IMG/VR virus record: IMGVR_UViG_3300046168_000024
Origin: an uncultured virus (IMG/VR IMGVR_UViG_3300046168_000024)
Taxonomy: Duplodnaviria > Heunggongvirae > Uroviricota > Caudoviricetes
DNA: 64,000 nt
Strand: one strand, 5' to 3'
Shown here piece after piece: positions 32,788-56,143 of the stretch (within the stretch, counting starts at the first letter, position 1; each line of letters opens with the position of its first letter). The notes below the pieces were generated by a model. It did not search any database. It worked only from the letters and a program-made list of their open reading frames with translations, and was not told the DNA's origin. Position numbers and translations under genes: made by a program.

Positions 32788-35700
32788 TGGCAGGTAAAAA
32801 AGTACAAGGCGGCACCATCACCTTCAAAATCAATGATGATGGTAGTCTATCCTTATTTGAAAAGAAAGCGAAAAAAGCTGGACAAGCTGTAAAGAAAGTA
32901 GGTAAATCTGCAGGGGATACTCGTAGAAATCTACAGTCTATGTCAGGTCGTGTCGAATCAGGCACTAAAGGTTTTTCTCGTATGCAACAAGGCACAGGTG
33001 GTCTTGTACAATCTTACGCTATTCTAGCATCTACTCTATTCGCAGTTGGAGCAGCTTTCCGAGCAATGGAAAATGCTGCCAACATAGAAAACCAAATGAA
33101 AGGTTTTCGTTCCTTAGCACAAATAACAGGTACTTCTATGTTAGCTATCACTTCTAGTGTTAGAGCGGCTACTGGAGGTATGCTCGATTTTCAAACCGCA
33201 GCACAACAAACTGCTATAGCAACCGCAGCAGGATTCACAAAAAACCAAATCGTAGAACTTTCAGAAGGAGCTAAATTAGCTTCTGTTACTCTTGGTCGTG
33301 ATTTAACAGATTCCTTTAACAGATTAATAAGAGGTGTGACGAAAGCAGAACCCGAACTATTAGATGAATTAGGTATCATATTAAGACTAGATATTGCAAC
33401 AAGAAGTTTTGCAGCAGCAAATGGATTAGTAGCAGAAAAGTTAACAATCGGTGAAAGAAGATTAGCGGTGTTCGAAGAAGTACAAAGACAGTTAATAAAT
33501 AACTTTGGAGCAATGCAAGATGAAGCAAATGAATTTTTAAATCCATTTTCAAAATTAAGTGTAGCCGTTCAAGATTTAGTTATAGAACTACAAAAATTAC
33601 CTTTAGGAGCCTTCTCTTCTTTAGTTGAATTTCTAACTAGAAATATAGGAGCTTTGATGGTTGTTATGACAATGTTTGCAAGTTCTATAATATCCCAAAT
33701 CGTCCCTTCTCTCGGTAATATGAAACAATCCTTCTTAGATGTATCAGTAGCAGCAACTAATCAGCAGAAGAGTTTAAAAGCAAATGTTAATGTACAAAAA
33801 GCAAAAATTAAAGAAATAGAATCTAAATTTATTGCTTCAGAAGCTAAGAAGAATATAATGTTCAAAAAAGAGTTAAAAAGAAGAGGAATCACTCAAAAAT
33901 CTTTCAATGCTATGACAATAGCAGACCAGAAAAAACTTATTCAAAAAATGATAATGGAAGACAAAAAAGGTGTGTCTGCAACAGGAAGAGCAAACAAACA
34001 AAGACAAGCTTCTTATCAAGCTATGTTTAAGAAAATAGAATTGGCATCAGCAAAATCAGCAAAAACATTAGGTGCACACGCAAGAATAATGGGAGCCAAT
34101 CTAATGATGATGGTAAGGCAACCAGCTATTTTAACATCAAGAGCAATAGGAGCAATAGGTACAGCTGCTGTAGCAGCAGCTCCTAAATTAGCCCTATTAG
34201 GTTCAATATTTAATGCAACTCTAGGAATAGCGATGGCATTTTTTACTTTAAAATTTGTTGTAGATTTCTTACCAGGAATACAAAAGATAAATGAAGCTCT
34301 TGATAAGATGAAAGAAAAATTAAAAGCATCACAAGTAGTTTTAACAGAAATGGCTTTTTCTTTTGATGAAAGACTATTAAATAGTAAATTAGAAAGTATA
34401 AAAGAATCTTTCTTTAAATCAGATGGTAGTGTAGACTCCATAGCTGGAGCTCTTAGAGCAGCGAACGCAGAATTAGAGTACTTTGGAAAATTAACAGGTA
34501 ATCTTGAATTAGGAATGAATGAAAAAGCATTTAAAAAGTACATTGATAAAATTACAATGGAGACCATACGAGATATGGGAGACTCTGGTTTAGTAAGTGC
34601 TTTTGGTGGTACTATGAATGCTCTGTCAGCGTCTGGTGGTGCTGTACAAACTGTACCACAAATGTTAGACCCAAACTATAAAATGGTAACACAAGACTCA
34701 GCAGCTTTACAAGCCGCATCAGAACTGATGGCTTCAAGACTATTAGAAAATGTTGCTTTAGCTATGAGAACAGGAGATACAGTAAAAGCAAGAGACTTAC
34801 TTGCAACAGCTTTTGGAGATACAATTGCTGACTCTGCTATGGAAGGCTTTGCAGAGGCAAAGGGCAGTAGTAGAGCAATGGCAGGTCTTATGGAAGACTT
34901 ACAACAGGAGTTAGGAGATAATCCTCTTAAAATATTTGAATTTGACTTTGTAAATAATGAAATAACAGGATTACGTGAAAATTTTATACTAGCTTTAAGA
35001 AAAGCGAATGATTTAGTAGCAGCAATTAATAGAGTGCCAGGTATTTTATCAGGAACAAGAGAAGCTTCCAAATCTTTAGCAGAAGCATTTGGTCAACAAT
35101 ACCTAAACCTAGTACTATTGAAAAAAATGCAAATCAAATTGAAACTATATTAAATGAGTTTGTAGATAAAAAAGGTAATATAAAAGATTTAAACTCAGAA
35201 GAATTAAAATTAACTGCTAGTATTGTTTCAGTACTAGAAGATGAACTCGCAATAAAAGCACTAACTGCAGAACAAGCCAAAGACATATTAGAAGCAGAAA
35301 AAGAGAGATTAAGATTAGTAGACTTTAGATTAGATACTTTTAAAACTTTAATGGCTCTTTCAAAAGCTGAAATGAATAATCTAAAATTTGTTAATACTAG
35401 AACTTCAAAAAGATATCAAACAGAACAAAAAATATTTGATTTAAGAATGCAAATGCAGAATAATATCGATAAAGAAGAACAAAAATTTTCTAAACTTGTT
35501 AAATATGGAACTGACCAACAAAACAATATTGATAGACAAGCAGACGGAGTCAGGGCTGTAAATAGAGAATTAGAAGTTCAAGTAGAATTATTAGAAGCAA
35601 GCTTACATAGAACAGAAATGTTAATGAAAGGTTTATTAGAAACTTTTGATTCATCTGCCGCTAAAAATTTAGCAACTTTAATTGATACTGCAAATTTAGG

Positions 35701-36755
35701 AGAGTTTGGAGGTAAAGAGTTTATGAAAAACTTAGCCGAAGACTTGAAGAAAACTGCAGCAAAATCATTGGCAGAAGGTATGGTAGATTCAGTAACAGAC
35801 AAATTAACTCCTGCAAGATTCAAACTTAATAAAAAATTAGACCCAGCACAAAAGATAATGGCAGCACACAAATACCATATAGACTCTTAGCAGATATATT
35901 AAATCAACATGCCAAAGCTATAGGAAGTTCTTTAGGAGTAAGTTCAAGTGGACTAGACCCAACAGACCCAAATCAAATGACATATGGAGGATTATTTGGT
36001 GGCGATAAAACAAACTTAGAAGGTGGTTTTGTAGATACAATAAAAGGTAAATTATCAGGAATGAAAGATTTCATATTTGGTAAAAAAGGACAAGTATATA
36101 GCGGCTTTGACCATGCTGCCGTTCTTGACCCTACAAGAAAACATGCACCAGGCATGAAAGCTTTACCAGAAGGATTAACAGACGAGCAAAAAGCAACACT
36201 TGTTGGAGGCGGTGAAGTTGATACTTCTCTACCTAATATATTTGAAAGAGTATTTGGAGCAGATGGAATGTTTGCAAAAGTAGGTAAAAAAATCTTTGGA
36301 GAGGGCGGAATGTTCTCAAAATAGGTGCAAGTTTATTTGGAGAAGGTGGAATGTTATCAGGTTTATTTGGAGGCGGAGATGGTAGTGGACTCTCAGGATT
36401 CTTAGGAAAAATATTTGGAGGCGCTACTGGAGTAGCTACTGGAGGAGTCATAGGATTAGCAAACGGGGGTGTAGCTAAATACTCTGCAGGAGGTATTGCA
36501 AGACAACCAACTTACTTAGTAGGAGAAGGAAAACAGCATGAAGCAGTAGTTCCTTTACCTAACAACAGAAGTATTCCTGTAGACTTAGGAAATGGCTCAG
36601 GAGCAACAAACAATACAAGTATAACAGTCAATATGGCTGACGGAAGTTCACAGACAACTAGTGATGGTGCTGCAGGTCTTGCACAAGCAATTGATGCAGC
36701 AGTACAAAGCACTATAGAAAAAGAACTTAGACCTGGGGGAATATTAGCAGGATAA
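32787..36755 (+). CDS. tape measure protein (split by probable sequence errors near 35100, 35890, 36320)
   Basis: T5 pb2-like RGVTKAEPELLDELGI; helical A/K/L-rich; C-terminal VGEG..EAVVPL and E.RPGG.L. Confidence 0.85.
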
Positions 36756-38671: not shown

Positions 38672-39366
38672 CTAGAAATATTTATTTAAAAGGAAGAATG
38701 GGTAAACTATTCGGAGAGCATCATAGACTGAATGTGAAGACAGTCCAGGAAGCTATGCATGCAATAGATACTATGAAAGGCGGTCTTCGTCAATATCTTA
38801 TAGACTGTACAGAAAATAATGTAAAATTTTCAGTACAAAAAGGAGAGGATTTCTTATCAAATCAAACTGCAGGAATAGAGTTAGGAAAAGATGATATAAT
38901 TATTACTCCAGTTCCTAGAGGTTCTGCAAAAGATGGTCTTACAGAACTTATTATTGGAGTAATATTAATTATTGTTGGTTTTAGTATGGGTGACCCAGAC
39001 ACAGTAAGTAGAGGAGCACAACTTTTAATATCTATTGGTACATCTTTAGCTTTACAAGGTATAGTAACATTACTAACTGATGAGCCCGACGTGCCTCAAT
39101 GAGGAAGAATCTAGTATGTTCAATGGCCCAATAAATAACACTAAATCAGGAGTACCCGTACCTTTATGTTTCGGAAAAATGGAAGTAGGTGGAGCGGTAG
39201 TAAACTTCGGATTTACAGACACTAGAATTCAAGGTAATCAAGGGATATCAATTCGTTAGTAAAGGAACAAGGAAACGGCGAAGGTTCTGGTGGCGGTGGC
39301 GGTGGAGCTGGTGGCTCAGATAATAGTGGCGGTAATTCAAACTGGATTCAACAGGAGGCTCATTAA
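38668..39366 (+). CDS. tail assembly protein I-like (frameshifted near 39095)
   Basis: MTRNIYLKG..G..FG; FNGP.N....GVPVPLCFG in the next frame. Confidence 0.75.
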
Positions 39367-42300
39367 TGGCACAAAATACATCACAAGGTAGTACAAGAGG
39401 TTCAGCGCCTCTCGATTCCGCAGGAGTAAAGTCTAGTGGACTTATTCGTGCTCAAACTGCTGTTATCTATGATTTATTATCTGAAGGACCTATTGAAGGA
39501 CTGGTAGATGGTGTTGCAAGTATTAGATTAAACGACAATCCTGTTGCAAATGCTACAAATGCTACTGCAATATCTCCGCAAAGATCTTTTGATGCTGGTT
39601 ATGTTCACGGAACAGGAGTAATTACAGATAATTCAACAGGTAATATATTTAGCGGTGCTTCTATATCCGATGGAACAAGAGAAATAATAGTACAAGGCGC
39701 AAGTAAAAGAACAACTTCTTCTATTAATTGTGTAGCAGGTAACAATATTGTTCTTTCTACAAATAGTGGAAATATGTCTTTTGCAGCAAGTGATGTTTGG
39801 GATGGCGTTGGTATACAACCAATGATTCGTATTGATGGGGCTGGGCGTAATGGCGGACAACTCATAGCAGGAATCACAGAACAAATAAACACAACTGCAA
39901 TAAGAGTAGATACAGTTCCTATGACAACTGTAACAAATACAAAAGCATACTTAGATTTAAAAGATACTGTAGATAGTTTTAGTGGTAATACTGCTACTAT
40001 TACAGCCGCAGGAGTAACTGTTGCAAATACTGGTGTACAAATGGGAAGTCCTTCTCGAACAGAACAACAACAACCTTTATATAACTACGAAAACTTTGGA
40101 TTTGCATTTAGAACAGGAGAGCGTGAACAAGAATGGTTACCTACTCCAGCAGGTATAGGTAGTGCTTCTATTGCTCACTCAGTATCAGGAGGAGCTCTTG
40201 GTACTACACAAAATACAGGATATCCTAGTGCAAGTTCTTTTGGGTTTAAAGAAACAACATCATACTCAGGAAATGCTTTAGTAGTAACTTCTTCTACAAT
40301 GGGAGTTGGAAATCCTTCAGAAGTAGATGCAGTTAAAGTAACTTTACAGTTTAATACTATGATTTCACAAAAAGAAAATGGTAAGCTTGGTCCTGGGTTT
40401 GCTGAATACAGAATCAAATTCGGATATTCTAGAGACGGTGGAAGTAGTTATACAGATGTAACAAAAGTAGGTAGAGCTACAATTGCTACTAGTACATCCT
40501 CTTATCATAGAAATGGTAGAACAAAAGACGCACAAAGTGGCATTATATCAGCAAAAACTAAACAACCATTCAATCATGTTTATACTTTTGATATAAGTAA
40601 ATATCAACCATTTGATGCTTACAGATTAACAATTGAAAGAATCTCAGCAGTTAATCAAAAAGAAAATAGTTGGCAACAAAATAATAGTGGTACTGTAAAA
40701 CAAATTGAAAATATTATTACTGATAAATTAACTTTCCCATATTCTGCATATGCAGGGGTTGTTGTAGATGCGAAAGATTTTCAACAAATACCAAAAAGAA
40801 GTTATGAAATTCGTGGACTAAAAGTAAAAGTTCCTACAAATTATTTTCCGCTTGATGAAGCAAACACAGCAACAGGAGTAAGAAGAACTACAGCTTCTTA
40901 TCAAAGAAATGTAAGTACAGGAGCAGAAGAAAGTTCCGTACAAGATTGGGATGGTAATTTTAGAGGAGACCAAAAAACTTTTACAAGTGCTACTCATGCA
41001 AACTATGAACCAGTATATACAAACAACCCTATTTGGGTATTTTATGACTTACTAACAAATCAAAGATACGGATTAGGTAAATACTTAGATGAAGACTTTG
41101 ACTTTAGTAGCATAGATAAATATACTTTATTTCAATTAGCAAAGTATTGTGATGAATTAGTTCCTGATGGAAAAGGTGGAACAGAACCTAGATTTACTAC
41201 TAACTTATATGTTCAGAAAGACCAAGACGCAATTAAATTTTTAAAGAACTTAGCTTCTCAACTAAGAGCCATGTTAGTATGGTACAATGGACAAGTAACT
41301 CTTGGAATGAATCAACAAAAAGGAGCTATTTATACTTTCTCAAAATCAAATGTAATTGATGGAGAATTTAATTATGCAGGTACGGCAGGTAGATTTAGAA
41401 ATAATCAGATAGCAGTAAGTTGGAATGACCCAGAGAATGGCTATAAACAAGCAGTAGAAGTTGTAGAAGACCACGATGACATTGCAAAAACAGGTAAAGT
41501 TAGAAGAAAAAATGTTGCAGCCTATGGCTGTACTTCACAAGGACAAGCTGTAAGACATGGTAAATACCAATTGTTATCAGAACAACTTGAAAAAGAAGTA
41601 GTAACATTTAAAACAGGATTAAATGCATTAGGTTTAAAACCTGGTGATGTCATAAAAGTACAAGATTCAGATTTACAAGATATAGTTGCAAGTGGTCGTG
41701 TTACTACTTCAGCTTCTTCTACAACAACAATTATAAGAACAGACAGAGATTTAAGTTCATTCTTAAATAATAGTGATAATTTTAAATTACACTTAATATA
41801 CCCAAATGGTGGTGCTTATTTGGCACAGCCTCTGGCTACTATTAATTCAACTTCTTATACACAAGGAGATTTAATACTACTTGATGAAGATGGAGCAGCT
41901 GTTGATAGTCACGCTAAAGCTAGTAATATAAAAGATGATAGTGGAGCAGTTGTACAAACTTATTGGTCAGATGACCTTAGAATAGAAACTCAAGCAGTAA
42001 GCTCTTTTAATACTACATCTATAACTGTATCAAGCGCATTTAGTTCTGCACCAAACGGTGAAGTAATATATACAGTTTCAGGAGAGACTGATGATAATGT
42101 TAAAATTGCAGGTAGTTTTAAAGAGTATATTATTTCGAGTATAAAACATGAAGATGATATGCAAGTAAGTATTGCAGCAGCAGCTTATGAATCAGGCAAA
42201 TTTGATGCAGTAGATAGAGGTTGGAAAGTTCCAGAATATCCCGATACTTTATATAAACCTCCCGCAAGAACAGATGAAATTCCTGTACCAATAGGATTAA

Positions 42301-45300
42301 CTGCACAGATAGTACCAGGAAGTTCAAATGGAGGAGACAATGTAGGAGATGGAGATAACAATAATGACTACTCTATCGTATTAAATTGGACTCACCCAAC
42401 TACACAAAGAACAGATTCAAATGGTAATGATTTAGTAGATGTTTATGAACATTTAGTAGGTTATAATATTCAACATAATTTAGACTTAGAAAATGATGAT
42501 AGAGATAGTAATAGAGAATTTACAACTGTATTCTTAGACTCTAATAATAAATCAGACTATGTATTTAGTAATGTTGTACCAGGAGCAGCTTATAAATTTA
42601 GAGTTCAAACAGTAGCTACAAATGGTAGAACTTCTGGTTGGGTACAAAGACAAGTAAGCTTCCCAGATAGTGCTTATGCAATATTTGGACAAGGAGCTAT
42701 ATCTGCTGGTATGAATCACTTAATACAAAAAGGCGGTATATTAACAACAGTTGTAAATGTAAATAGTACTAATGGTACTACAACTTTTGCAAATACTACT
42801 TATGTATTTACTCCACCAAATAGTGTTCCAGCAATAACAGTTTCAAACGGTAATGCCGCAAAAACAGTACAAGACGGATTCAATAATTTAGCAGATGGTG
42901 GCACAGGTTTCTTACTATATGATTATAGTGATACTAGTGACCCTTTAAAAGCAATTACCCTTGTAGAAGATACAAGTGCAATAGATGCAGTAACAAGTGC
43001 TAAGTATAATTATCAATTTATGGCACAGCTTGGAGCATCGAATAATGACTTAACTCAAGCAAGTGGAACAGTATCAGCAACAGCAGGATTACCAGAACTT
43101 ACAGGTAGTAGTACAACTTTTACTTCTGACTTTACGGAAGGAGATGTTATCGCAATAGATACAGCAGGAGCCACTAGATTTATGGCAAAAATTGTAGAGA
43201 TAGAAAGCGATACTTCTCTAGTAATGGATAGTAGCCCAAGTAGAGCATATAGTGGAAAAACTGTTCATAAACAAGGTTTAACATACGACCATTTAAAAGA
43301 TAGTATTTTAGGACAAATTTCAAGAAGTGGAAGTACTTATAGTTATACTCCATTTACAAATAAAATGAAAGTTGATACCTCTGATGAAATCGGTGGTAAT
43401 ACAATCACATCAGTACAGATATTAGCAAACTCTGTTAACTCTACTATTATTCAAGCTAATTCAATAGGAGCAGCAGCAATAGTAGCAGGGCAGATTAACA
43501 ACTCACACATAGCAGCAAACTCAATAGATTCTGCACAAATAGTAGCAGGAGAAATAGATTCTTCCCATATATCAGCAAACTCAATAGGCAGTGCAGCTAT
43601 AACAGCCAACGCAATAGGTAGTTCAGAAATATCTGCAAACTCAATAGGTAGTGTAGCCGTTACAGCTAATGCTATAGGAAGCTCAGAAATTGCAGCTAAT
43701 TCAATTGGAACAGTAGCGATTGCAGCTAATAGTATTACATCCTCACAGTTAACATCAAACGCAGTAGGCTCTTTTACAGTCACAGCTAATAGTATTACAA
43801 ATGTAGAAATCGCCGCAAACAGTATAGGCAGTTCAGAAATAGCTGCTAATTCAGTTAATGGTACAATACTAATAGGAAATTCAGTAGGAAGTAGTGAAAT
43901 AGCAGTTAACTCTGTAAATGGTATTATCATAGCAGATGGAGCTATTGATGCAGCAGGTAAATTAGGAAATGCTATTATCTCAGGAACTAAGTTAGCAGAC
44001 AACTCTATAAATGATTCAAGAATAGTTGCAGCCAATGTAATTGATACTAGTATGATAGCTGCCAACAGTATTACAGCAGCTCTTGTTGCAGCAAATGCTA
44101 TTCAAACTTCAGAAATTCAAGCAAACTCAGTAAATGCAGTTCTTATAGCTGCAAACTCTATTACTAATAATCAAATAGCAATTAACTCTGTAAATAGTGT
44201 TGTTATTCAAAATGATGGGGTAACTGGAGATAATATAACAGCTAACTCAATTACTGCCGCAAAAATTGTAGGTGGTACTATAACTAATGCAGAAATAAAT
44301 GCTTCAGCAGGAATTACATTTGCAAAAATATCCGTGTCCGATGGAGACATTGATGGTGCAAAAATATCCGCAAACGGTAATATTACTAGTGCTATGATTG
44401 GGTCAGTCGCGGCTGGCACACTTACAGGAACAATAGGCACTGCACAAATAGCCGCGTGTGCTATCACATCAGCACTAATAGCTGCAAATTCTATTGATAC
44501 AGCAGAAATAAAAACAGGTAGTATTGATACTATACATATTGCTTCAAATCAGATTACAAATGCATTGATAGCTGCAGACGCTGTTGAAAACGCAACCATA
44601 AAAGGAAATGCTATTACAAATGCTAAAATATCCTCATCAGATTCTTTAACTCTAAATATTGAGGGAGGAACAACAGGGGGCTGGACAGTTACCTCTGGTG
44701 CTTTCTCAGGTGGAAGTCCAACAGTACAAGCAAACAATTTTACAAATCAGGGAATACAATTAAATAGTGCAGGGTCAATTCATGCAAAAGAATTCCATAT
44801 TGACTCATCAGGAAATGCTAAGTTCAAAGGAACACTAGAAGGAGATGATATAACCGTAAACGGAAACTTAATTCTACCTTCATCAGGTGCAAATACAGCA
44901 GGTGGTACAATAGGAACTTTCCAAAACAATACTATGGACAATAAGTTTATTACTACTATTGGAACAGGAGCAGGATTCTATCAAGGCTTTGTAAGATTAA
45001 CAGGGGGAACAAACCATGTTAAGACTATTTCAATCCAAATCAGAGACGGAAGTTCTACAGCAAGTGAAGGAAATCTAATATATGAAACTCCTAGGGTAGA
45101 CCAATATACAGCAGGAAACCTATCAGAAGGTAGACTATTCTCTAGTGCACAAACAGCTAATATGCCGATTGCATTTAGTTATACAGGCTCCTCAACTATT
45201 GCAGCTTTTGTAAGAGCACAGGGAGATGGAGCAGAAACATTAGGGTCAGCTGAAGCAAGATTTATCAAGTTTGGAACTACAGACCCAATATATAGTTTTG

Positions 45301-46106
45301 CTAACCAAACAGGTGTAGCAGTGAGTAGTACTTTTTTCTCTAACACACAAGTTGTTGGTGGATTTGCAGGGACTAAAACTGTAAGTGTAACTAATCCTTC
45401 ATTCACAAGATTTAGTATCGATGGCGGAGCATTTGGAAATTCTTCAGTAAATATTGCAAACGGTAGTTACATAAATGTAGAAATAACTTCTGCATCAAGT
45501 AATTCAACTACTAGAAGTACAGTAGTCACTATCGGTGAAAGTACACAAGGTTTTTCAGTAACAACAGGAGGCACCTCTGGAGGCGGAGGTGGAGGCGGAG
45601 GTGGCGGAGGCTGCTTTGTTGAAGGAACTCCTGTCGTTATGTCAGATGGTTCATTGAAAGCAATAGAAGCAGTCGCTGTAAATGATAGTGTAAAATCATT
45701 TAAGCACTCTACCTTAGACGCAAGTAGTGAGGATGCATGGGAAACTTGGACTGCTACAGAAATTGCAAGTGGAAGTTTTGGTACTTCAACAGTAAAAGCA
45801 AGAACAGATGCTCATGAATATAATAATTACTATTGGATTAATTACAATCTAAAAGTTACAAACGAACATCCAATGTTAGCTTTTAAAGATGGAGTATTCA
45901 AATTCGTAGAAGTCTCAAATCTAGCAGTCGGTGACTATTTAATATTAGAGGACGGCTCAAGAGAAGAGATATTTGCAATACCACAAAAAACAATAAATTG
46001 TCTTACTTATAATATGGATGTGGAAGAAGATGATACTTATGTAGTTAAAGGTGGTAATGGTAATGGATATATAGCACATAACGTAGGAGGCAATCAGAAA
46101 CAATAA
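39366..46106 (+). CDS. central tail tip/host specificity protein J-like with decapeptide repeats and C-terminal Hint domain
   Basis: DLLSEGPIEGLV, YTNNP.W...DLLT..RYGLG, YCDELVPDGKGG.EPRF, GCTS.GQA.R; IxANSI repeats; CFVEGT...AHN. Confidence 0.92.
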   Translation: MAQNTSQGSTRGSAPLDSAGVKSSGLIRAQTAVIYDLLSEGPIEGLVDGVASIRLNDNPVANATNATAISPQRSFDAGYVHGTGVITDNSTGNIFSGASISDGTREIIVQGASKRTTSSINCVAGNNIVLSTNSGNMSFAASDVWDGVGIQPMIRIDGAGRNGGQLIAGITEQINTTAIRVDTVPMTTVTNTKAYLDLKDTVDSFSGNTATITAAGVTVANTGVQMGSPSRTEQQQPLYNYENFGFAFRTGEREQEWLPTPAGIGSASIAHSVSGGALGTTQNTGYPSASSFGFKETTSYSGNALVVTSSTMGVGNPSEVDAVKVTLQFNTMISQKENGKLGPGFAEYRIKFGYSRDGGSSYTDVTKVGRATIATSTSSYHRNGRTKDAQSGIISAKTKQPFNHVYTFDISKYQPFDAYRLTIERISAVNQKENSWQQNNSGTVKQIENIITDKLTFPYSAYAGVVVDAKDFQQIPKRSYEIRGLKVKVPTNYFPLDEANTATGVRRTTASYQRNVSTGAEESSVQDWDGNFRGDQKTFTSATHANYEPVYTNNPIWVFYDLLTNQRYGLGKYLDEDFDFSSIDKYTLFQLAKYCDELVPDGKGGTEPRFTTNLYVQKDQDAIKFLKNLASQLRAMLVWYNGQVTLGMNQQKGAIYTFSKSNVIDGEFNYAGTAGRFRNNQIAVSWNDPENGYKQAVEVVEDHDDIAKTGKVRRKNVAAYGCTSQGQAVRHGKYQLLSEQLEKEVVTFKTGLNALGLKPGDVIKVQDSDLQDIVASGRVTTSASSTTTIIRTDRDLSSFLNNSDNFKLHLIYPNGGAYLAQPLATINSTSYTQGDLILLDEDGAAVDSHAKASNIKDDSGAVVQTYWSDDLRIETQAVSSFNTTSITVSSAFSSAPNGEVIYTVSGETDDNVKIAGSFKEYIISSIKHEDDMQVSIAAAAYESGKFDAVDRGWKVPEYPDTLYKPPARTDEIPVPIGLTAQIVPGSSNGGDNVGDGDNNNDYSIVLNWTHPTTQRTDSNGNDLVDVYEHLVGYNIQHNLDLENDDRDSNREFTTVFLDSNNKSDYVFSNVVPGAAYKFRVQTVATNGRTSGWVQRQVSFPDSAYAIFGQGAISAGMNHLIQKGGILTTVVNVNSTNGTTTFANTTYVFTPPNSVPAITVSNGNAAKTVQDGFNNLADGGTGFLLYDYSDTSDPLKAITLVEDTSAIDAVTSAKYNYQFMAQLGASNNDLTQASGTVSATAGLPELTGSSTTFTSDFTEGDVIAIDTAGATRFMAKIVEIESDTSLVMDSSPSRAYSGKTVHKQGLTYDHLKDSILGQISRSGSTYSYTPFTNKMKVDTSDEIGGNTITSVQILANSVNSTIIQANSIGAAAIVAGQINNSHIAANSIDSAQIVAGEIDSSHISANSIGSAAITANAIGSSEISANSIGSVAVTANAIGSSEIAANSIGTVAIAANSITSSQLTSNAVGSFTVTANSITNVEIAANSIGSSEIAANSVNGTILIGNSVGSSEIAVNSVNGIIIADGAIDAAGKLGNAIISGTKLADNSINDSRIVAANVIDTSMIAANSITAALVAANAIQTSEIQANSVNAVLIAANSITNNQIAINSVNSVVIQNDGVTGDNITANSITAAKIVGGTITNAEINASAGITFAKISVSDGDIDGAKISANGNITSAMIGSVAAGTLTGTIGTAQIAACAITSALIAANSIDTAEIKTGSIDTIHIASNQITNALIAADAVENATIKGNAITNAKISSSDSLTLNIEGGTTGGWTVTSGAFSGGSPTVQANNFTNQGIQLNSAGSIHAKEFHIDSSGNAKFKGTLEGDDITVNGNLILPSSGANTAGGTIGTFQNNTMDNKFITTIGTGAGFYQGFVRLTGGTNHVKTISIQIRDGSSTASEGNLIYETPRVDQYTAGNLSEGRLFSSAQTANMPIAFSYTGSSTIAAFVRAQGDGAETLGSAEARFIKFGTTDPIYSFANQTGVAVSSTFFSNTQVVGGFAGTKTVSVTNPSFTRFSIDGGAFGNSSVNIANGSYINVEITSASSNSTTRSTVVTIGESTQGFSVTTGGTSGGGGGGGGGGGCFVEGTPVVMSDGSLKAIEAVAVNDSVKSFKHSTLDASSEDAWETWTATEIASGSFGTSTVKARTDAHEYNNYYWINYNLKVTNEHPMLAFKDGVFKFVEVSNLAVGDYLILEDGSREEIFAIPQKTINCLTYNMDVEEDDTYVVKGGNGNGYIAHNVGGNQKQ

Positions 46107-49712: not shown

Positions 49713-52502
49713 ATGGCACTTATAGGAAAACAAAACGCATTAGTTTCAGTACTTGAAGCAAATGCAGTAGGAAGCAGTGAAATTGTTTCTAATTCCGTAA
49801 CTGCGAGTGAAATAGCAGCAAACGCTGTTGGTAGTTCAGAGATTTCAGCAAACGCTGTTGGAACATCTGAGATTGCTACTAACGCTATTGCAGCAGCTCA
49901 GTTACAAGCAAGTGCTATTACAGCCGTAGCAGATAACTCTATTGACGCAGCTGCTATAGCAGAAAACTCAGTAGATTCTTCAGAATTAGTCACAGGTTCA
50001 ATAGACGCTATTCATTTAGCAACAGGAGCAGTTACAACTGCTAAAATAGGAGCAGACCAAGTAACTAACTCAGAGTTAGCAGCAAACTCAGTCTCTTCAA
50101 CAGAAATCGCACTCAACTCAATCAATGCGAGTGAACTAGCAATAAATTCCGTAACAGGTACAGCAATAGCAGATAACACTATAGACGGAACAAAAATTGC
50201 ATCGAATAGTATTTTAACAAGACATATTGATGACAATCAAATTACTACTGACCAGATAGCAGGAAATACAATTGCTACTGCGAACATAGCAGATAATGCA
50301 GTAGATGGTTCAAAGATAGCATCAAACAGTATTTTAACAAGACACATAGACGATGGTCAGATTACAACAGACCAAATACTCAATGCAACAATAGTAGCAG
50401 GGGATATAGCAAGTGATGCAGTTATTACTGCAAAGATACTAAACGCAAATGTAACAACAGCAAAAATAGCAGACAATGCAATTACAGCAGCTAAGTTACC
50501 TTCTGGAGTTATAGCTTCAGACCATATCACAGATGGTACTATTGTATCAGGAGATATAGCAGCAAATACTATTGCAACATCCAATATAGCAGATAATGCT
50601 GTAGATGGAACTAAGATTGCTCAAAATAGTATTTTAACAAAACATATAGATGACGGTCAAGTAGATACTGCACAGCTAGCCGCTGACGCAGTAGACGGTA
50701 CTAAGATAGCTGATGATGCAATTAACAGCGAACATCTTGTAGATGGCAGTGTTGATACTGTTCATATTGCTGCAGGTAATATAACAACAGCAAAAATTGC
50801 AGATAACAATGTAACTTCAGCAAAAATAGCAACAGACCAAGTACTAGCTAAACACATAGCAGCTGGTGCAGTAGATTCAAGCGAGATAGCAGCTAACGCT
50901 GTATCAGCCTCTGAACTTAAATCAGATGCACTTGGTGGTCAAACATTCACAGGTAATGTCACACTATCAGGTAACTTAACAGTTAATGGTACAACAACTA
51001 CTGCGGCATCAACAAACACAGTTATTTCAGATAAGTTAATCGAACTTGCAAACGGCACATCAGGTTCTCCATCAGGAGATATGGGTATTGTTCTCGAAAG
51101 AGGAAGTTCTGATAATGTATTCATAGGTTGGGATGAAAGTGCAGACAGAGTAAGATTTGCAACTACAACAGCAACAGGTGCATCAACTGGAGACTTATCT
51201 CTTACAAATGCAAATATACAAGCAGGTAGACTTTATGGAGATGTAACAGGTGCTTTAACAGGTAACGCTGATACAGCAACTACTCTAGCAACAACAAGAG
51301 CTTTCTCTTTAACAGGAGATGTAACTGCTTCAGCTATTAACTTTAATGGCGGAGCTGCAGTAGCTTTATCAACATCTTTAGCCGCAAACACAGTAGATAG
51401 CGCAGAATTAGTAACTGGCAGTATAGATGCAATACACATTGCAGCAAACGCAGTAACATCAGCTAAGATAGGGGCTAACCAAGTAGGTTCAAGTGAGATT
51501 GCTCAGAATAGTATTCTTACTCAACATATTGACGATGGACAAGTAGGAGCAGCTCAATTAGCAAGTGATGCAGTAACATCAGCTAAGATAGGAGATAACG
51601 CTATCAATAGTGTAGCATTTATATCAAGCGGTCTAATTACATCAGACTTAATATCAAATGGCACTATTGCAACAGCAGACGTAGCAGATAATGCAATTAC
51701 TACTGCTAAAATAGCAACCAATAGTATTACAACTTTAATGATTGCAGATGATGCAGTTACATCAGCTAAAATAGCAGACAATGCTATATTAACACAGCAT
51801 ATTGATGATAACCAAATTACTACTGACCAGATAGCCGCAAACACAATTGCAACTGGTAATATTGCTGATAACGCAGTAGATGGCACAAAGATAGCACAGA
51901 ATAGTATTCTTACTAGACATATTGACGATGCACAGGTTAACACTGCTCAACTAGCAGGTAACTCTGTAACAGCCGCAAAGATACAAGCAAACGCTGTTGG
52001 GTCAAGTGAGATAGCAGCTAACTCAGTATCAGCTTCTGAACTTAAATCAGATGCTTTAAGTGGGCAATCATTTACAGGTACTGCACAGATAGCAATAGTT
52101 AATGCTTCTACAAGATTAAAAGCACAGCTTATTGGTATTCAAGACCCAAATCCACCACAAAAATTCCACATAGACGAAGTAGCTGGTATGGATGTTGGTA
52201 CAGGAAGTTCATCTTCTACAGCACAATTCACACTTAACTCATTCAGCGCATCAGTATTTAGAAGTGCTGAATATACAGTACAAGTTACAAATTCCACAGA
52301 TAGTGATTATCAAACTTTAAAGATAGTACTATTCCATGATGGAACAACAGTTTATTTAACACAGTACGCTTCTATATTTGACAATGGTGCTCAGGCAACC
52401 TTTGATGCAGATATAAATAGTGGAAATGTTAGATTAAGAGCAACGCCAGCAAGTGGAGACACAATGGCATACAAGTTCATTAGAACAACAATAGAGGTAT
52501 AA
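49713..52502 (+). CDS. long tail fibre with 10-aa repeats
   Basis: dozens of IAxNAV/ITxxK and ILTRHIDD decapeptides; C-terminal FRSAEY.VQ domain. Confidence 0.8.
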   Translation: MALIGKQNALVSVLEANAVGSSEIVSNSVTASEIAANAVGSSEISANAVGTSEIATNAIAAAQLQASAITAVADNSIDAAAIAENSVDSSELVTGSIDAIHLATGAVTTAKIGADQVTNSELAANSVSSTEIALNSINASELAINSVTGTAIADNTIDGTKIASNSILTRHIDDNQITTDQIAGNTIATANIADNAVDGSKIASNSILTRHIDDGQITTDQILNATIVAGDIASDAVITAKILNANVTTAKIADNAITAAKLPSGVIASDHITDGTIVSGDIAANTIATSNIADNAVDGTKIAQNSILTKHIDDGQVDTAQLAADAVDGTKIADDAINSEHLVDGSVDTVHIAAGNITTAKIADNNVTSAKIATDQVLAKHIAAGAVDSSEIAANAVSASELKSDALGGQTFTGNVTLSGNLTVNGTTTTAASTNTVISDKLIELANGTSGSPSGDMGIVLERGSSDNVFIGWDESADRVRFATTTATGASTGDLSLTNANIQAGRLYGDVTGALTGNADTATTLATTRAFSLTGDVTASAINFNGGAAVALSTSLAANTVDSAELVTGSIDAIHIAANAVTSAKIGANQVGSSEIAQNSILTQHIDDGQVGAAQLASDAVTSAKIGDNAINSVAFISSGLITSDLISNGTIATADVADNAITTAKIATNSITTLMIADDAVTSAKIADNAILTQHIDDNQITTDQIAANTIATGNIADNAVDGTKIAQNSILTRHIDDAQVNTAQLAGNSVTAAKIQANAVGSSEIAANSVSASELKSDALSGQSFTGTAQIAIVNASTRLKAQLIGIQDPNPPQKFHIDEVAGMDVGTGSSSSTAQFTLNSFSASVFRSAEYTVQVTNSTDSDYQTLKIVLFHDGTTVYLTQYASIFDNGAQATFDADINSGNVRLRATPASGDTMAYKFIRTTIEV

Positions 52503-52504
52503 TA

Positions 52505-52729
52505 ATGGGAACTAAATTAAATTTTAACATTGAAGACGCAGGTTTATCTGTGGATGGAAGTGAAAAGTTTAACTCGAGTGGAGCTGCACAAAATATAACT
52601 ATAAGCGGCGATAAAATAACATCAGGTACTGTAGCAAGTGCCAGACTACCATACACTATTAGAACAAATGCTCCAACGGGCACCGAGTCTACATCTAGTG
52701 GTCACATATGGTTTATATACTCGAGTTAA
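52505..52729 (+). CDS. small fibre adaptor-like protein
   Basis: ITSGTV..ARLP, AP......GHIWFIY. Confidence 0.65.
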   Translation: MGTKLNFNIEDAGLSVDGSEKFNSSGAAQNITISGDKITSGTVASARLPYTIRTNAPTGTESTSSGHIWFIYSS

Positions 52730-52732
52730 TAA

Positions 52733-55111
52733 ATGGCACTATATGTTAACGACAGCGGAACACTTCGACAGATTTCCTTTTTGGCAATCAATGATAGTGG
52801 TACGCTTAGAAGAATCAATGAAGTCTATGTAAATGACGGTGGGTCTCTTGAAGGCCCATTCACTATTACACATACAACAAGTAGAAATACTGCGACTTCA
52901 ACTTCTACCATTTCTGGTTTACAGTTAACAACATATAACACAACAACTACATTTAACACTCAACAAAGTACAGTTACAACAACTGTCTTTAATACATCAA
53001 CTACATTTAATACTAGTAAAGCAACAGGAAGTTCAAGAAGTACAACAACAACTTATAATACAACTCAGACAACAACAACTGCGTTTACTACTACAACTGC
53101 TTTTACTACTACTACGACCTTTACAACTACACAAGGTACAACAACTGCGTTTACTACAACGACTGCTTTTACTACAACGACTACATTTAACACAAGTAAA
53201 ACAACATCGACTACAGGTTCTACAACGACTGCATATACTACTACTACAACCTTTGAGACAACTCAAAGTACAACTACTAATTATAATACAACAACTGCGT
53301 ATACAACTACCTATGATACAACAATTAGTACAAGTAGAACTACAACATTCGCTACAACAACAGCGTATGAGGATAATACTAGCTTTGCTACTACAAGAAC
53401 AACTACCTTCGCTACTACAACAGCGTATGAGGATAATACTAGCTTTGCTACTACTAGAACTACAACATTCGCTACTGATACTGCATATGTAGATAATACA
53501 GGGCAGTCTACTACTAGAACTACAACATTCGCTACATCGACAGCTTATGTAGATAATACAGGGCAGTCTACTACTAGAACTACCACATTTGCAACAGCAA
53601 CAGCTTATGTAGACAACACAGGTCAATCAACAAGTAGAACTACAACATTTGCCACTACTACTGCATATGTAGATAATACATCTCAGTCAACAGCATATGA
53701 TACTACATTTAGTACTAATACTGCTAGAAATACAAATACTTCTAGAGGCACTGCGTTTACAAACTCTACTGCCTTTGCTACTAATACAAGTAGAAACACT
53801 GCGTTTACTAACTCAACTTCTTTTGCAACTAACACTTCAAGAAACACGAATACGGCTAGAGGTACTGCGTTTACAAATGCAACTGGATTTACAAATAACA
53901 CTACTAGAGAAACAGAGTATATAATAAGTTTCTGCCCAGAAGGTGGCACAAATATGGATATGAGGAACACCTCATTTGCTACTAATACTTCAAGAAATAC
54001 AAATACAAGTAGAAACACCGCATTTACAAATGCAACTGGATTTACAAATAATACTAGTAGAAATACGAATACGGCTAGAGGCACAGGATTTACAAATAAT
54101 ACTAGTAGAAACACTAACACTTCTAGAAACACAGCATTTACAAACTCTACAGGATTTACAAACAATACTACACAGGGTACAAGTAGAACAACTTCTTTTG
54201 CAACAAATACTTCAAGAAGTACTAATACATCACAGTCAACTTCTTATACTACAACATTTGCTACTAATACTGCAAGAAATACAAATACTTCACAGTCAAC
54301 ATCTTATACTACTACATTTAGTACTAACACTGCAAGAAGCACTAACACTTCTCAGTCAACAAGTTATACTACTACATTTAGTACTAATACAACTAGAAGC
54401 ACAAACACTTCTCAGTCAACAAGCTATAATACTGTTAGACTATCGAATACTTCAAGAAGTACTAATACATCACAGTCAACAAGTTATAATACAGAGAGAC
54501 TATCGAATACTGCTAGAAGTACAAATACATCTCAGTCAACTTCTTACGAAACTTCCTATGCGACTTCAAGAGCAAGCTCACGAAGCACAGGAACAAGTAG
54601 AACTACGACTACAACATTTGATACTACACAATCAACAGCTTCAAGTAGAAGTACAGCAACTGCTAAGAATACTACTACTACTTATGAAACTACTCAAGGA
54701 ACAACAACTACTAGAAGTACTGCGTCAAGTAGAAGTACAACAACAACATTTAATACTCAACAAAGTACAGCTAGTTCAAGAAGTACTGCATCAAGTAGAG
54801 ATACTACTACAACCTTTGAAACAGCAACAACTACAACAACTGCGTATGATACTACTACAACCTTTGAGACAAGCAAGACAACATCAAGTTCTAGAGGTAC
54901 AACTACCACTACAACATTTAATACAACAAGGGCATCTGCTACAAGCAGAAACACTGACCACTTAACAACAACAACATTCAATACTTCAACAACAGTATTT
55001 GAAAGAACAACCGCCAGCTCAGCAGGAACTCTATTTGACACAGAAGTCTCGAGTCTAGAAGATTATGGATTCTCTTACTGGGACGGCTCACAATGGAGCG
55101 AATCTAACTAA
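52733..55111 (+). CDS. Thr-rich self-complementary repeat protein (putative hairpin fibre)
   Basis: N-terminal YVNDxG repeats, Thr-dominated 4/6-residue units mirrored around EYIISFCPEGGTNMDMR, C-terminal YWDGSQW. Confidence 0.85.
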   Translation: MALYVNDSGTLRQISFLAINDSGTLRRINEVYVNDGGSLEGPFTITHTTSRNTATSTSTISGLQLTTYNTTTTFNTQQSTVTTTVFNTSTTFNTSKATGSSRSTTTTYNTTQTTTTAFTTTTAFTTTTTFTTTQGTTTAFTTTTAFTTTTTFNTSKTTSTTGSTTTAYTTTTTFETTQSTTTNYNTTTAYTTTYDTTISTSRTTTFATTTAYEDNTSFATTRTTTFATTTAYEDNTSFATTRTTTFATDTAYVDNTGQSTTRTTTFATSTAYVDNTGQSTTRTTTFATATAYVDNTGQSTSRTTTFATTTAYVDNTSQSTAYDTTFSTNTARNTNTSRGTAFTNSTAFATNTSRNTAFTNSTSFATNTSRNTNTARGTAFTNATGFTNNTTRETEYIISFCPEGGTNMDMRNTSFATNTSRNTNTSRNTAFTNATGFTNNTSRNTNTARGTGFTNNTSRNTNTSRNTAFTNSTGFTNNTTQGTSRTTSFATNTSRSTNTSQSTSYTTTFATNTARNTNTSQSTSYTTTFSTNTARSTNTSQSTSYTTTFSTNTTRSTNTSQSTSYNTVRLSNTSRSTNTSQSTSYNTERLSNTARSTNTSQSTSYETSYATSRASSRSTGTSRTTTTTFDTTQSTASSRSTATAKNTTTTYETTQGTTTTRSTASSRSTTTTFNTQQSTASSRSTASSRDTTTTFETATTTTTAYDTTTTFETSKTTSSSRGTTTTTTFNTTRASATSRNTDHLTTTTFNTSTTVFERTTASSAGTLFDTEVSSLEDYGFSYWDGSQWSESN

Positions 55112-55275
55112 TGGCAGGATTTGAAAAAGAAAAAGGTATTACACCAGAGTATGTAAACAAGAAAATGGAATCAATGCTTACAGCAATATATGATGTAATA
55201 GAAGAAAACGAACATAGAATGAGAAAGATGGAACAAGTCATCTTCGAGCTAAAGAATGGTAAAGGCAAAGAATAA
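55111..55275 (+). CDS. 54-aa coiled-coil protein
   Basis: TAATG coupling; MAGFEKEKGITPEYVNKKME... Confidence 0.6.
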   Translation: MAGFEKEKGITPEYVNKKMESMLTAIYDVIEENEHRMRKMEQVIFELKNGKGKE

Positions 55276-56143
55276 ATTACAAGCCTTAAGCATTAATGAA
55301 GAAGTCGGTGATATAGCAACTCACTGGTTAAAATCAGGCTCAGCTTTTAGACCCTCAGAAGACTTAGTAATATTAAATGAGTTTGGTAAGAAACTTCTAC
55401 CTAAAAGTCACAGAGATTTAGCATTTGAGTATGACATATGGTTTAACACAAATGAGAACTATACCATCAGAAAATGGTTATACACGGATTTTATGGGAAG
55501 GGGATTATACTTTCGAGTTCCTTCCATAAAGATTAATAATAGACTGTTTAAGGCGATTGTAAATTCCGACATAAAGATAGACGAAGAAAGAATCGACAAA
55601 GTGATGAAGAATTTACAGAACAAGTATTATCTTCATCCGAGTGAAAAATTTTACGAGAAAGTAATATTTTTACCAGGCAGCAACTTATTATGCAAACCCG
55701 ATTGTATAGACATTAGAAGGGTGGAAAAATTAGTTGAAGAAGGATATGTAATAAAACCACATCCAATAACTGCTCATATTTTTATAGCAGAACTTAGAGC
55801 AAAGTTTGGATATGATAAAGTACTAGGAAAGAAAGAGGGAGGACATGAACTTCTTCTTAATGCAACTGAAATAGCAACAGCACAGAATAGTGAAATGGGC
55901 ATCGTCGCATTACTACTAGAAAAAGATATACGAATGGTTTCTCACCCTGTAAAAAAGAGAGAGAAAAGTTTACTTACTTATGAAAGTTTTTACGAAGCAG
56001 TTGCAGGAACAGATGCAAAGAAAACAATATTAAAACTGTTCTCGGCAAAAAATTCAGGAATAATCTTTGATTTTGACGAGGACGCAGACGAAAGGCTAGA
56101 AAAGTATCTAGCAAACTTTTGGGAATACAAAATAGAACAATGA
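55256..56143 (+). CDS. putative GT-B glycosyltransferase (KpsS/capsule synthesis-like)
   Basis: IKPHP motif and NSEMG..ALL (cf. NSTxG.EAL). Confidence 0.5.
   Translation: MVKAKNKLQALSINEEVGDIATHWLKSGSAFRPSEDLVILNEFGKKLLPKSHRDLAFEYDIWFNTNENYTIRKWLYTDFMGRGLYFRVPSIKINNRLFKAIVNSDIKIDEERIDKVMKNLQNKYYLHPSEKFYEKVIFLPGSNLLCKPDCIDIRRVEKLVEEGYVIKPHPITAHIFIAELRAKFGYDKVLGKKEGGHELLLNATEIATAQNSEMGIVALLLEKDIRMVSHPVKKREKSLLTYESFYEAVAGTDAKKTILKLFSAKNSGIIFDFDEDADERLEKYLANFWEYKIEQ

What the first reader, a model, noticed from the sequence alone, without database searches (positions are those of the whole stretch)
52733..55111. A protein built like an RNA stem-loop: residue-level complementarity between two ~330-aa arms
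Seen: reading outward from the central segment YIISFCPEGGTNMDMR (~53917-53955), the large residues punctuating the Thr/Ser/Asn background occur at identical mirrored spacings (4, 6, once 8) on both arms. An aromatic (F/Y) on one arm faces R/Q/K on the other: R-F, F-R, F-R, R-F, R-F, F-R, F-R, R-F, F-R, F-R, R-F, R-F, F-Q, Y-R, Q-F, Y-R, F-Q, R-Y and so on. By hand count about 60 of 63 consecutive positions obey this with no register slip (exceptions I-Y, G-K, Y-T). Six 20-aa repeats on the N arm (AYxDNT..) are matched by six different, complementary 20-aa repeats on the C arm (STNTSQSTSY); where the N arm changes Q to F, the partner changes F to R. Inference: one giant antiparallel beta-hairpin (roughly 100 nm if extended at ~0.33 nm/residue) zipped by cation-pi/amide-pi pairs, with a unique tip loop as possible receptor binder. 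It could oligomerise like the T4 gp37 needle. Repeat expansions would have to be compensated on both arms. I know of no description of such a pairing code.
Basis: partly seen in the sequence, partly recalled or inferred. Interest (0 to 1): 0.92.

Follow-up and report, generated by a model that had tools for sequence, protein, structure and literature searches.

The report
Giant mirror-paired hairpin fibre protein
A marine phage tail-fibre gene encodes a threonine-rich protein whose two halves match each other residue by residue in mirror order, as if the chain folds back on itself into one very long two-stranded ribbon, an architecture not described before.

Summary
ORF 52733-55111 (792 aa, 38% Thr) has one mirror register (residue i faces 807-i). 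In it, 63 aromatic residues face R/K/Q, with no aromatic:aromatic or polar:polar clash. The best other register gives 25 and shuffles at most 22-44. All large residues lie on one face of each arm. There is no DNA or RNA palindrome.

In 37 of 37 distinct complete homologues (752-3108 aa) from viral metagenome contigs, the best register is fixed to the chain ends, so both arms grow and shrink together. I predicted the 3108-aa length of one member from a fragment before fetching it. Indels come in equal pairs, and near-identical variants show paired swaps such as Q→F with F→R. Exceptions exist: three proteins carry a one-repeat surplus on one arm.

Best reading: the stalk of a virion fibre of a T5-like marine siphovirus, made by antiparallel pairing of its two arms, with a variable tip loop and both termini at the base. 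The three-dimensional structure and oligomer state are not shown; AlphaFold2 was low-confidence.

The parts
52733..55111 (+). Whole gene, 792 codons plus stop: fold-back fibre protein
   Evidence: ORF. Intact in 37 distinct complete homologues of 752-3108 aa. No Pfam or PHROG family matches the whole protein.
52733..52882 (+). N-terminal module, residues 1-50: three ~14-aa repeats (YVNDSGTLRxI type). Presumed virion anchor.
   Evidence: 87% mean column identity over 20 homologues. Matches the N-terminus of phrog_13729 at E 1.3e-6. The same module heads ~170-aa proteins and Gly_rich_2 fibre-like proteins. The anchoring role is inferred.
52883..53920 (+). N arm, residues 51-396
   Evidence: Mirror partner of the C arm at i+j=807. 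Large residues are on one parity only, 62:2.
53921..53962 (+). Tip loop, residues 397-410 (IISFCPEGGTNMDM), unpaired
   Evidence: No complementarity across the centre. The tip differs between homologues and is rich in G, P, D and E. M410Q distinguishes two 97%-identical variants.
53963..55000 (+). C arm, residues 411-756
   Evidence: Mirror partner of the N arm. Parity 63:1.
55001..55108 (+). C-terminal module, residues 757-792 (..AGTLFDTEVSSLEDYGFSYWDGSQWSESN)
   Evidence: 86% mean column identity over 15 homologues. It lies at the same end of the stalk as the N-terminal module. It is absent in a second subfamily whose arms run to the very C-terminus.
52505..52729 (+). 74-aa gene 3 nt upstream. 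Always present next to the hairpin gene; role unknown (adaptor or chaperone is a guess).
   Evidence: Homologue found directly upstream in 12 of 12 loci examined, 52-100% identity. No Pfam or PHROG match.
49713..52502 (+). 929-aa repeat-rich tail-fibre protein upstream (context)
   Evidence: phrog_892 tail fibre protein, E 1.6e-86, 12 stretches. Syntenic in 12 of 12 loci.

Best explanation
The gene encodes the last protein of the tail-fibre module of a T5-like marine siphovirus. After a conserved 50-residue N-terminal anchor, the chain runs out for about 345 residues, turns in a 14-residue variable loop, and runs back antiparallel for about 345 residues to a conserved C-terminal module. Both ends therefore sit at the base and the loop is the distal tip.

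The two arms are beta-strands. Every second residue points to the same face. On that face each rung is either Thr:Thr or a large pair made of one aromatic (F/Y) and one long polar residue (R, Q or K). Large rungs are separated by one or two Thr:Thr rungs. The other face carries small residues (T, S, N, A, G).

The alternation of which arm holds the aromatic fixes the register, much as base pairs fix an RNA stem. The stalk can only change length by equal changes on both arms. If straight, the stalk would be about 115 nm here and about 0.5 um in the 3108-aa relative.

Shown: the pairing rule, the parity, equal arms across the family, paired indels and paired substitutions, and the genomic context.

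Inferred: that rungs are physical cross-strand contacts in a beta-ribbon, that the protein is in the virion, that the tip or stalk contacts the host, and the length. The number of chains per fibre is unknown.
For: Pairing and parity:
- One register gives 63 aromatic:RKQ rungs with 0 like-with-like; controls reach at most 44.
- Strict two-residue periodicity of the large residues, 62:2 and 63:1, is the signature of beta-strands with one decorated face.

Pair table over 22 distinct full-length homologues:
- F:R 646, F:Q 506, Y:R 445, F:K 77, Y:Q 24.
- F:F 1, Y:Y 1, R:R 1.
- In a 14-protein subset, T opposite R, Q or F occurs 0-8 times where 80-290 are expected.

Equal arms across the family:
- 37 of 37 distinct complete proteins, 752-3108 aa, have their best register 14-16 residues off the chain ends.
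- Further members of 886-1578 aa have offsets of 15-17.
- The length of 3108 aa was predicted from a 3'-open fragment and then found, with 224 rungs and 0 clashes.

Coupled changes:
- Matched indels of 20/20, 16/16 and 12/12 residues.
- Between two 97%-identical variants, 6 of 21 differences form 3 adjacent mirrored pairs, including Q258F with F549R; about 0.6 such positions are expected by chance.
- Y:R rungs have D/E two residues along the Tyr strand in 297 of 744 cases, against 1 of 1050 for F:R.

Other support:
- A second subfamily without the C-terminal module keeps the architecture (offset 47) and adds FYF facing GGG.
- AlphaFold2 on the central 200 aa gives strands 58-96/105-143, 33-38/163-168 and 2-20/181-199, all symmetric about the predicted centre (low confidence).
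- Context: a lambda/T5-like tail module with tight spacing to the fibre genes, conserved synteny in 12 of 12 loci, and TerL 48-49% identical to T5-like phages.
Against: - No confident structure. Full-length AlphaFold2 had pLDDT 32.7 and drew the N-arm 20-aa repeats as solenoid-like short strands (residues 202-335, pLDDT 50-67). The hairpin model of the centre had pLDDT 39.6, and its alignment was built from segments I centred on the predicted tip.
- A two-stranded ribbon with both faces polar, 100-500 nm long, has no solved precedent. The fold search gave no match at E<=0.001.
- The rule is not absolute. There are 19 half-occupied positions in the query.
- Unpaired class changes occur between relatives. 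Examples are Q78L, Q172D and R475V with the aromatic partner kept; in L022 versus L029, 0 of the 12 class-changing differences in the stem have a class change at the mirror position.
- Five divergent members pair only 30-46 rungs and need several small bulges.
- L082/L089 and L086 have a 20-aa surplus on one arm. L142 probably has a 30-aa deficit on one arm.
- No evidence here that the protein is in virions.
Confidence: 0.75

Rival explanations
1. The same antiparallel pairing, but inside an interwoven trimer (or other oligomer) like the T4 gp37 needle. Each chain goes out and returns, and an N arm may pair with the C arm of a neighbouring chain. The stalk would then be a six-stranded rod, not a lone two-stranded ribbon.
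For: Tail fibres are as a rule trimers (abstract and passages of PMC12143355). The gp37 tip is a solved fold-back trimer with both termini at the knob (passage in PMC9603124 sec. 2.1). The second face is made of small residues (T103, S84, N56, A54, G16) that could line a narrow core.
Against: There are only 2 His, so no HxH metal sites. There is no sequence relation to any solved chain. No second register stands out that would mark an inter-chain neighbour; the other registers reach 25 of 63, with clashes. The N-terminal module is itself a triple repeat within one chain, which would fit a monomer mimicking threefold symmetry.
Confidence: 0.3
2. An extended antiparallel homodimer without a turn. 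The N arm of chain A pairs with the C arm of chain B along the whole length, giving a double-ended rod twice as long.
For: The i+j=constant rule cannot by itself tell intra-chain from inter-chain pairing.
Against: The centre is not self-complementary and is rich in the turn formers G, P, D, E and N in every homologue. A double-ended rod would put anchors at both ends and bury the variable segment in the middle. AlphaFold2 on the centre drew a turn at residues 97-104 of the 200 (low confidence).
Confidence: 0.05
3. The arms do not touch. Each is its own parallel beta-solenoid or a disordered Thr-rich spacer, and the mirror pattern is a by-product of repeat evolution or of a nucleic-acid palindrome.
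For: Full-length AlphaFold2 drew solenoid-like strands in the N-arm repeats. Thr/Ser-rich low-complexity regions are often linkers (general knowledge). Mirrored codons can pair at 46% of nucleotide positions against 39% (sd 1.6%) in other registers.
Against: A solenoid or linker gives no reason for arms of exactly equal length in 37 of 37 proteins over a fourfold size range, for paired indels or for paired swaps. There is no inverted DNA repeat beyond one 15-nt chance match. The central 300 nt as RNA fold no better than shuffles: z -1.27, and 19 of 200 shuffles fold at least as well. The small nucleotide excess follows from TTT facing AGA/AAA; every Thr:Thr codon pair has a central C-C mismatch.
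Confidence: 0.07

Closest known systems
T4 long tail fibre tip, gp37 needle (residues 811-1026)
   Same: A phage fibre in which each chain runs to the tip and turns back, so that the N and C termini lie at the same end and the tip is a loop region (passage in PMC9603124).
   Different: The needle is about 20 nm long, with some 70 residues per direction. As I recall it, it is an interwoven trimer held by HxH-iron sites. Here the arms are 345-1500 residues, there are no HxH motifs (2 His), there is no sequence similarity, and there is a binary side-chain pairing rule that gp37 is not known to have.
Streptococcal antigen I/II adhesin stalk (A region with P region)
   Same: A long stalk made by two repeat regions of one chain folding back on each other, with a variable domain at the far end (passage in PMC6586375).
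   Different: That stalk pairs an alpha-helix with a polyproline-II helix. Here there are 2 Pro, 38% Thr and a strict two-residue periodicity, which indicates beta-strands. Different protein families, and a cell-wall adhesin rather than a phage protein.
Long beta-hairpins of pore-forming toxins and phage tail tubes (anthrax PA, CDTb, aerolysin; phi29, Andhra and P68 tail proteins)
   Same: These are the longest solved beta-hairpins, and they top the fold search with the low-confidence hairpin model.
   Different: None matches at E<=0.001. By my recollection their hairpins have tens of residues per strand and exist only as staves of many-chain barrels. Here the arms are 6-30 times longer.
phrog_13729 and other phage proteins with the triple VNDxGT(L/W)R N-terminal module
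   Same: They share the 40-residue N-terminal module (E 1.3e-6; 232 library proteins at E<=0.001). Some carry Gly_rich_2 / tail-fibre-type C-terminal parts.
   Different: Those proteins are 160-625 aa and 7-12% Thr. They show no mirror pairing: 18-34% of large residues pair, like ordinary proteins.

Membership tests
T4 gp37-type fold-back needle | The chain runs to the tip and returns, with both termini at the same end | tested here: met
   Mirror register anchored 14-16 residues from the chain ends in 37 of 37 homologues. This is inferred topology, not a structure.
T4 gp37-type fold-back needle | HxH motifs that bind iron along the needle (recalled from the gp37 structure paper, not read here) | tested here: not met
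   Only 2 His in 792 residues.
T4 gp37-type fold-back needle | Sequence similarity to gp37 or its relatives | tested here: not met
   No PDB chain at E<=1. No Pfam family above threshold. No PHROG. tblastn against 50,697 phage records found no match, with the low-complexity filter on.
T4 gp37-type fold-back needle | Homotrimer | not testable with these tools
   No usable prediction of the oligomer was obtained. It needs SEC-MALS, AUC or EM.
phrog_13729 (unknown function), N-terminal module | Match to the family profile | tested here: inconclusive
   Residues 3-44 match profile positions 5-46 of 190 at E 1.3e-6. The remaining 144 profile positions are not matched, so only the N-terminal module is shared.
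Parallel beta-solenoid / Thr-rich beta-helix | Tandem repeats stack as successive parallel rungs, with no relation needed between distant halves | tested here: inconclusive
   Full-length AlphaFold2 shows solenoid-like strands at 202-335, but at pLDDT 50-67 within a model of mean 32.7. Equal arms, paired indels and paired swaps are not expected for a solenoid.
Antigen I/II-type stalk | Alanine-rich alpha-helix paired with a proline-rich PPII helix | tested here: not met
   2 Pro, 59 Ala and 298 Thr; two-residue periodicity.
T5-like siphoviruses (genomic context only) | Large terminase related to T5-like phages; genome of about 100-120 kb with terminal repeats; lambda/T5-type tail module | tested here: met
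   TerL is 48-49% identical over 97-98% of its length to Pectobacterium phage My1, Yersinia phage phiR2-01 and Salmonella phage LVR16A. A complete relative is 105,272 bp with direct terminal repeats. Tail module shown. Family-level placement was not tested further.

The most novel reading that the evidence does not exclude
This would be a new class of protein architecture: a single chain that zips into a two-stranded beta-ribbon hundreds of nanometres long. Its register is written in a near-digital side-chain code: aromatic faces R/Q/K, Thr faces Thr, Tyr:Arg comes with an Asp/Glu on the Tyr strand, and FYF faces GGG in a sister lineage. It evolves like an RNA stem, through compensatory substitutions and compensatory indels. 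That would give phages a fibre whose length is freely tunable from about 0.1 to 0.5 um, perhaps to raise encounter rates in dilute seawater. It would also be a natural template for programmable protein nanofibres.
Probability: 0.45. Interest if true: 0.95.

Novelty: categorically new. Interest (0 to 1): 0.88.

Why it matters
Three reasons, if the arms are in physical contact as the covariation implies.

1. This would be the longest beta-hairpin known, by more than an order of magnitude. It would be the first protein family in which strand register over hundreds of residues is set by a simple two-letter pairing rule.

2. It offers a natural data set of compensatory substitutions and indels for studying how repeat proteins keep two distant regions in step. 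It also offers a design principle for length-programmable beta fibres.

3. For phage biology, it points to an unrecognised kind of tail appendage in an abundant group of T5-like marine siphoviruses. The gene's words occur in 20 public runs from 18 studies of seawater, marine or viral metagenomes. Its length varies fourfold between relatives. That makes testable the old question of how phages tune reach and host encounter in dilute environments.

Tried and rejected
- **Nucleic-acid explanation.** There is no inverted repeat apart from one 15-nt match. The RNA fold of the central 300 nt has z -1.27. The small excess of pairable nucleotides between mirrored codons (0.46 against 0.39) is explained by TTT facing AGA/AAA. 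Rejected.
- **Homology searches on the whole protein.** All empty: tblastn against phages, Pfam (only a sub-threshold 9-residue hit), PHROGs, the search for homologous proteins on the whole protein and on residues 1-58, and PDB sequences. The composition is probably the cause; relatives were found through pattern scans of viral contigs.
- **Protein Atlas.** Only viral 'hypothetical protein' clusters, and no model.
- **Complex prediction.** Three copies of residues 31-170 of the central 200 aa: no verdict (ipSAE 0.01 and 0.00, controls not run). This is not evidence either way.
- **Fold search.** Run with the low-confidence hairpin model; nothing at E<=0.001.
- **Tail-length coupling.** The TMP frame is 1379 aa with a 1483-aa hairpin protein, and 1344 aa with an 849-aa one. 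With two data points there is no sign of coupling. TMP was not found on three other contigs.
- **Own genome.** The assembly is not held. The nearest record, G001, is a 42-kb fragment without the gene.
- **Read laying.** Only short contigs were available. All joints have sides under 30 letters and are unreliable. The repeat copy numbers and the one-arm surplus variants could not be checked.
- **The search for related loci with P0015.** Nothing found.
- **Literature.** Searches listed no paper describing such a protein. Tentaclins (PMC10743442, passages) are C-type lectin plus Ig proteins and are unrelated.
- **Earlier findings of this scan.** None.
Full report
**What is there.** The window carries the structural module of a siphovirus. 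In order it encodes:
- large terminase (22797)
- portal (24528)
- a protein that hits both head-protease and major-head families (25989)
- major tail protein (30656)
- tape measure (32787)
- minor tail proteins (37136, 38359)
- a 2246-aa J-like tip protein (39366-46106)
- fibre-like proteins (47382; 49713, phrog_892)

The finding is the last gene of this block: 52733-55111 on the + strand, 792 aa. It lies 3 nt after a 74-aa gene, which itself lies 2 nt after the 929-aa fibre gene. The large terminase is 48-49% identical to those of T5-like phages. Complete relatives are 105,272 bp (with direct terminal repeats) and 102,910 bp.

The protein is 38% Thr. I scanned every possible mirror centre. 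One register (i+j=807, 1-based) gives 63 pairs of an aromatic residue facing R, K or Q, and no aromatic:aromatic or RKQ:RKQ pair. The best other register gives 25.

Controls:
- Residue shuffles reach at most 18 pairs.
- Keeping each arm's spacing and shuffling only the residue types gives 31.9 ± 3.9, max 44.
- Permuting C-arm segments gives at most 22.
- Sixteen other proteins of the window pair 12-27% of their large residues at best, against 85% here.

Pairing runs without slip from Y396:R411 to R51:F756. The large residues are spaced 4 or 6 apart. They therefore all fall on one parity of each arm, 62:2 and 63:1. That face is T, F, R, Y and Q. The other face is T, S, N, A and G.

**It is not a nucleic-acid feature.** The gene has many direct repeats but only one 15-nt inverted match. 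Thr codons facing Thr codons always mismatch at the centre. The small excess of pairable nucleotides (0.46 against 0.39 ± 0.016) comes from TTT facing AGA/AAA. The central 300 nt fold as RNA no better than shuffles, z -1.27.

**The family.** Whole-protein searches found nothing, probably because of the composition. Pattern scans of viral contigs did find relatives:
- 40 loci
- 199 relatives, of which the best 80 loci were kept
- further members (I examined 44 of that call's 80 loci and left out those on contigs I had already seen)

The N-terminal 50 and C-terminal 36 residues are conserved. The middle varies from 752 to 3108 aa.

In 37 of 37 distinct complete proteins, the best mirror register lies 14-16 residues off the chain ends. 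There are 30-224 aromatic:polar rungs and 0-3 like-with-like pairs of each kind. Additional members of 886-1578 aa have offsets of 15-17.

One test was predictive. From a 3'-open fragment whose centre lay at s=3121, I expected a full length of 3108 aa. The open frame in the parent contig is 3108 aa, with 224 rungs and no clash.

Over 22 distinct full-length proteins the pair table reads F:R 646, F:Q 506, Y:R 445, F:K 77 and Y:Q 24, against F:F 1, Y:Y 1 and R:R 1. In a 14-protein subset, Thr almost never faces a large residue: 0-8 observed where 80-290 are expected. The small-residue face shows weaker preferences: N:N is enriched, S:S and A:A are depleted.

**Coupled evolution.**
- Relative to the query, close homologues differ by equal indels on the two arms: 20/20, 16/16 and 12/12 residues.
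- Two variants that are 97% identical differ at 21 positions. Six of these form three adjacent mirrored pairs: Q258F with F549R, G257S with S550L, and V253E with T554A. About 0.6 such positions are expected by chance.
- Y:R rungs carry D/E two residues along the Tyr strand in 297 of 744 cases, against 1 of 1050 for F:R. This suggests a Tyr-Arg-acid triad.
- A second subfamily (662 and 1184 aa) lacks the C-terminal module. It still pairs mirror-wise up to its very C-terminus (offset 47), and it adds FYF facing GGG/AGG.

**Results against a perfect code.**
- The query has 19 half-occupied positions.
- Between L022 and L029, none of the 12 class-changing differences in the stem has a class change at its mirror position. 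Several simply replace the polar partner of an aromatic (Q78L, Q172D, R475V).
- Five divergent members (L096, L097, L032, L099, L101) pair only 30-46 rungs ungapped and need several small bulges.
- L034 needs three or four one-residue bulges, which raise its count from 76 to 121-123.
- L082/L089 and L086, all 1463 aa, carry a surplus of one 20-aa repeat on the N arm or on the C arm respectively. Their 1483-aa relative L084 is perfectly matched.
- L142 (1161 aa; 69 rungs, 6+6 clashes) probably lacks 30 residues on one arm compared with L143 (1191 aa; 88 rungs, 0 clashes) (not examined further).
- These unbalanced variants may be real intermediates or collapsed repeats in short-read assemblies. 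Laying contigs could not decide.

**Structure.**
- Full-length AlphaFold2 failed: mean pLDDT 32.7. It drew the N-arm 20-aa repeats as short, solenoid-like strands at pLDDT 50-67.
- For the central 200 aa, with 21 aligned homologues, it drew one long hairpin. Strands 58-96/105-143, 33-38/163-168 and 2-20/181-199 are all symmetric about the predicted centre. Confidence is low: pLDDT 39.6 overall, and 58-67 near the tip. I had cut those segments around the predicted centres, so this is not independent of my hypothesis.
- With that model, the nearest solved folds are proteins with long hairpins: phi29 and Andhra tail proteins, and the stems of binary-toxin, anthrax PA and aerolysin pores. None matches at E<=0.001.

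The structural reading therefore rests on covariation and on the two-residue periodicity, not on a model.

**How it probably works.** The N-terminal module is three ~14-aa repeats. It also heads many 160-625-aa phage proteins, some with Gly_rich_2 / tail-fibre-type C-terminal parts, and it matches the start of phrog_13729. I take it to be a docking module.

From there, the chain forms the stalk by running out and back, and the variable loop, rich in G, P, D and E, is the distal tip. At about 0.33 nm per residue, 345 rungs give about 115 nm and 1500 rungs about 0.5 um. A twisted or coiled ribbon would be shorter.

The gene order is conserved: 110-aa gene, repeat fibre, 74-aa gene, hairpin gene, 295-aa gene. 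This order holds in 12 of 12 loci examined. The 295-aa homologue also follows the hairpin gene in the distant subfamily, at 26-30% identity. This suggests partners, but I did not test any.

A receptor-binding or tethering role is inference. The gene's words are held by 20 runs from 18 studies of seawater, marine or viral metagenomes, including 6 RNA libraries. Contigs from two RNA libraries cover 27 and 26 of 30 bins. That shows presence in those libraries, not transcription.

**Comparison with known systems.**
- The T4 gp37 needle shares the fold-back topology (PMC9603124, passage). However, it is 20 nm long and unrelated in sequence, and, as I recall it, it is iron-clamped through HxH motifs. 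This protein has 2 His.
- Antigen I/II adhesins build a fold-back stalk from an alpha-helix and a PPII helix (PMC6586375, passage). That is not a beta-ribbon.
- SMC and Rad50 arms are a further analogy for length-matched antiparallel arms (recalled, not checked).
- Seven literature searches listed no description of a protein with mirror-complementary arms or of this family. Papers outside the held library could exist.

**Verdict.** The interpretation as a giant antiparallel hairpin stalk is the best-supported reading (0.75). The oligomer state, the physical nature of the rungs and the function remain open.

Noticed in passing
window 32787-36755: The tape-measure gene appears split: a 788-aa ORF followed by ORFs of 179, 115 and 134 aa. 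Relatives have single open frames of 1344-1379 aa at the matching place. This could be frameshifts, assembly errors or a real split.
   Followed up: partly
L082/L089, L086 (1463 aa) versus L084 (1483 aa); L142 versus L143: These natural variants have one repeat unit (20 aa, or probably 30 aa) present on one arm only, about 58 rungs from the tip. They are either bulged intermediates on the way to compensated length change or collapsed repeats in assemblies.
   Followed up: partly
L161:5001-6989, L168:5001-8555: A second subfamily has the same N-terminal module but no C-terminal module. Its arms pair up to the last residue, runs of FYF face GGG/AGG, and aromatics often face I/V.
   Followed up: partly
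window 55256-56143: A 295-aa protein (phrog_26179, function unknown) follows the hairpin gene in all 10 of the 12 loci that extend past the hairpin gene. It also follows it in the distant subfamily at 26-30% identity. Weak relatives occur in Vibrio KVP40-like, Caulobacter and Stenotrophomonas phages. It may be an assembly factor.
   Followed up: no
window 16719-18503: A 594-aa gene is 36-38% identical to genes annotated as adenylate/guanylate cyclase in Pelagibacter phage HTVC008M and in Methylophilales phages of the Melnitz group. This hints at a marine oligotroph host.
   Followed up: no
window 25989-28046: A single 685-aa ORF matches both head-maturation-protease families (residues 4-302) and major-head-protein families (residues 28-667).
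   Followed up: no
window 53033-53626 (-), 53683-54165 (-), 53976-54965 (+): Long ORFs of 160-329 aa lie in other frames and on the opposite strand inside the gene. They are Cys/Ser-rich or Leu/Gln-rich mirror images of the Thr codon bias and are most likely not genes.
   Followed up: no
window 49713-52502: The upstream 929-aa fibre protein is built of many ~23-aa units such as IADNAVDGTKIAQNSILTRHIDD (phrog_892, 12 stretches). Its length also varies between relatives, 749-1277 aa.
   Followed up: no
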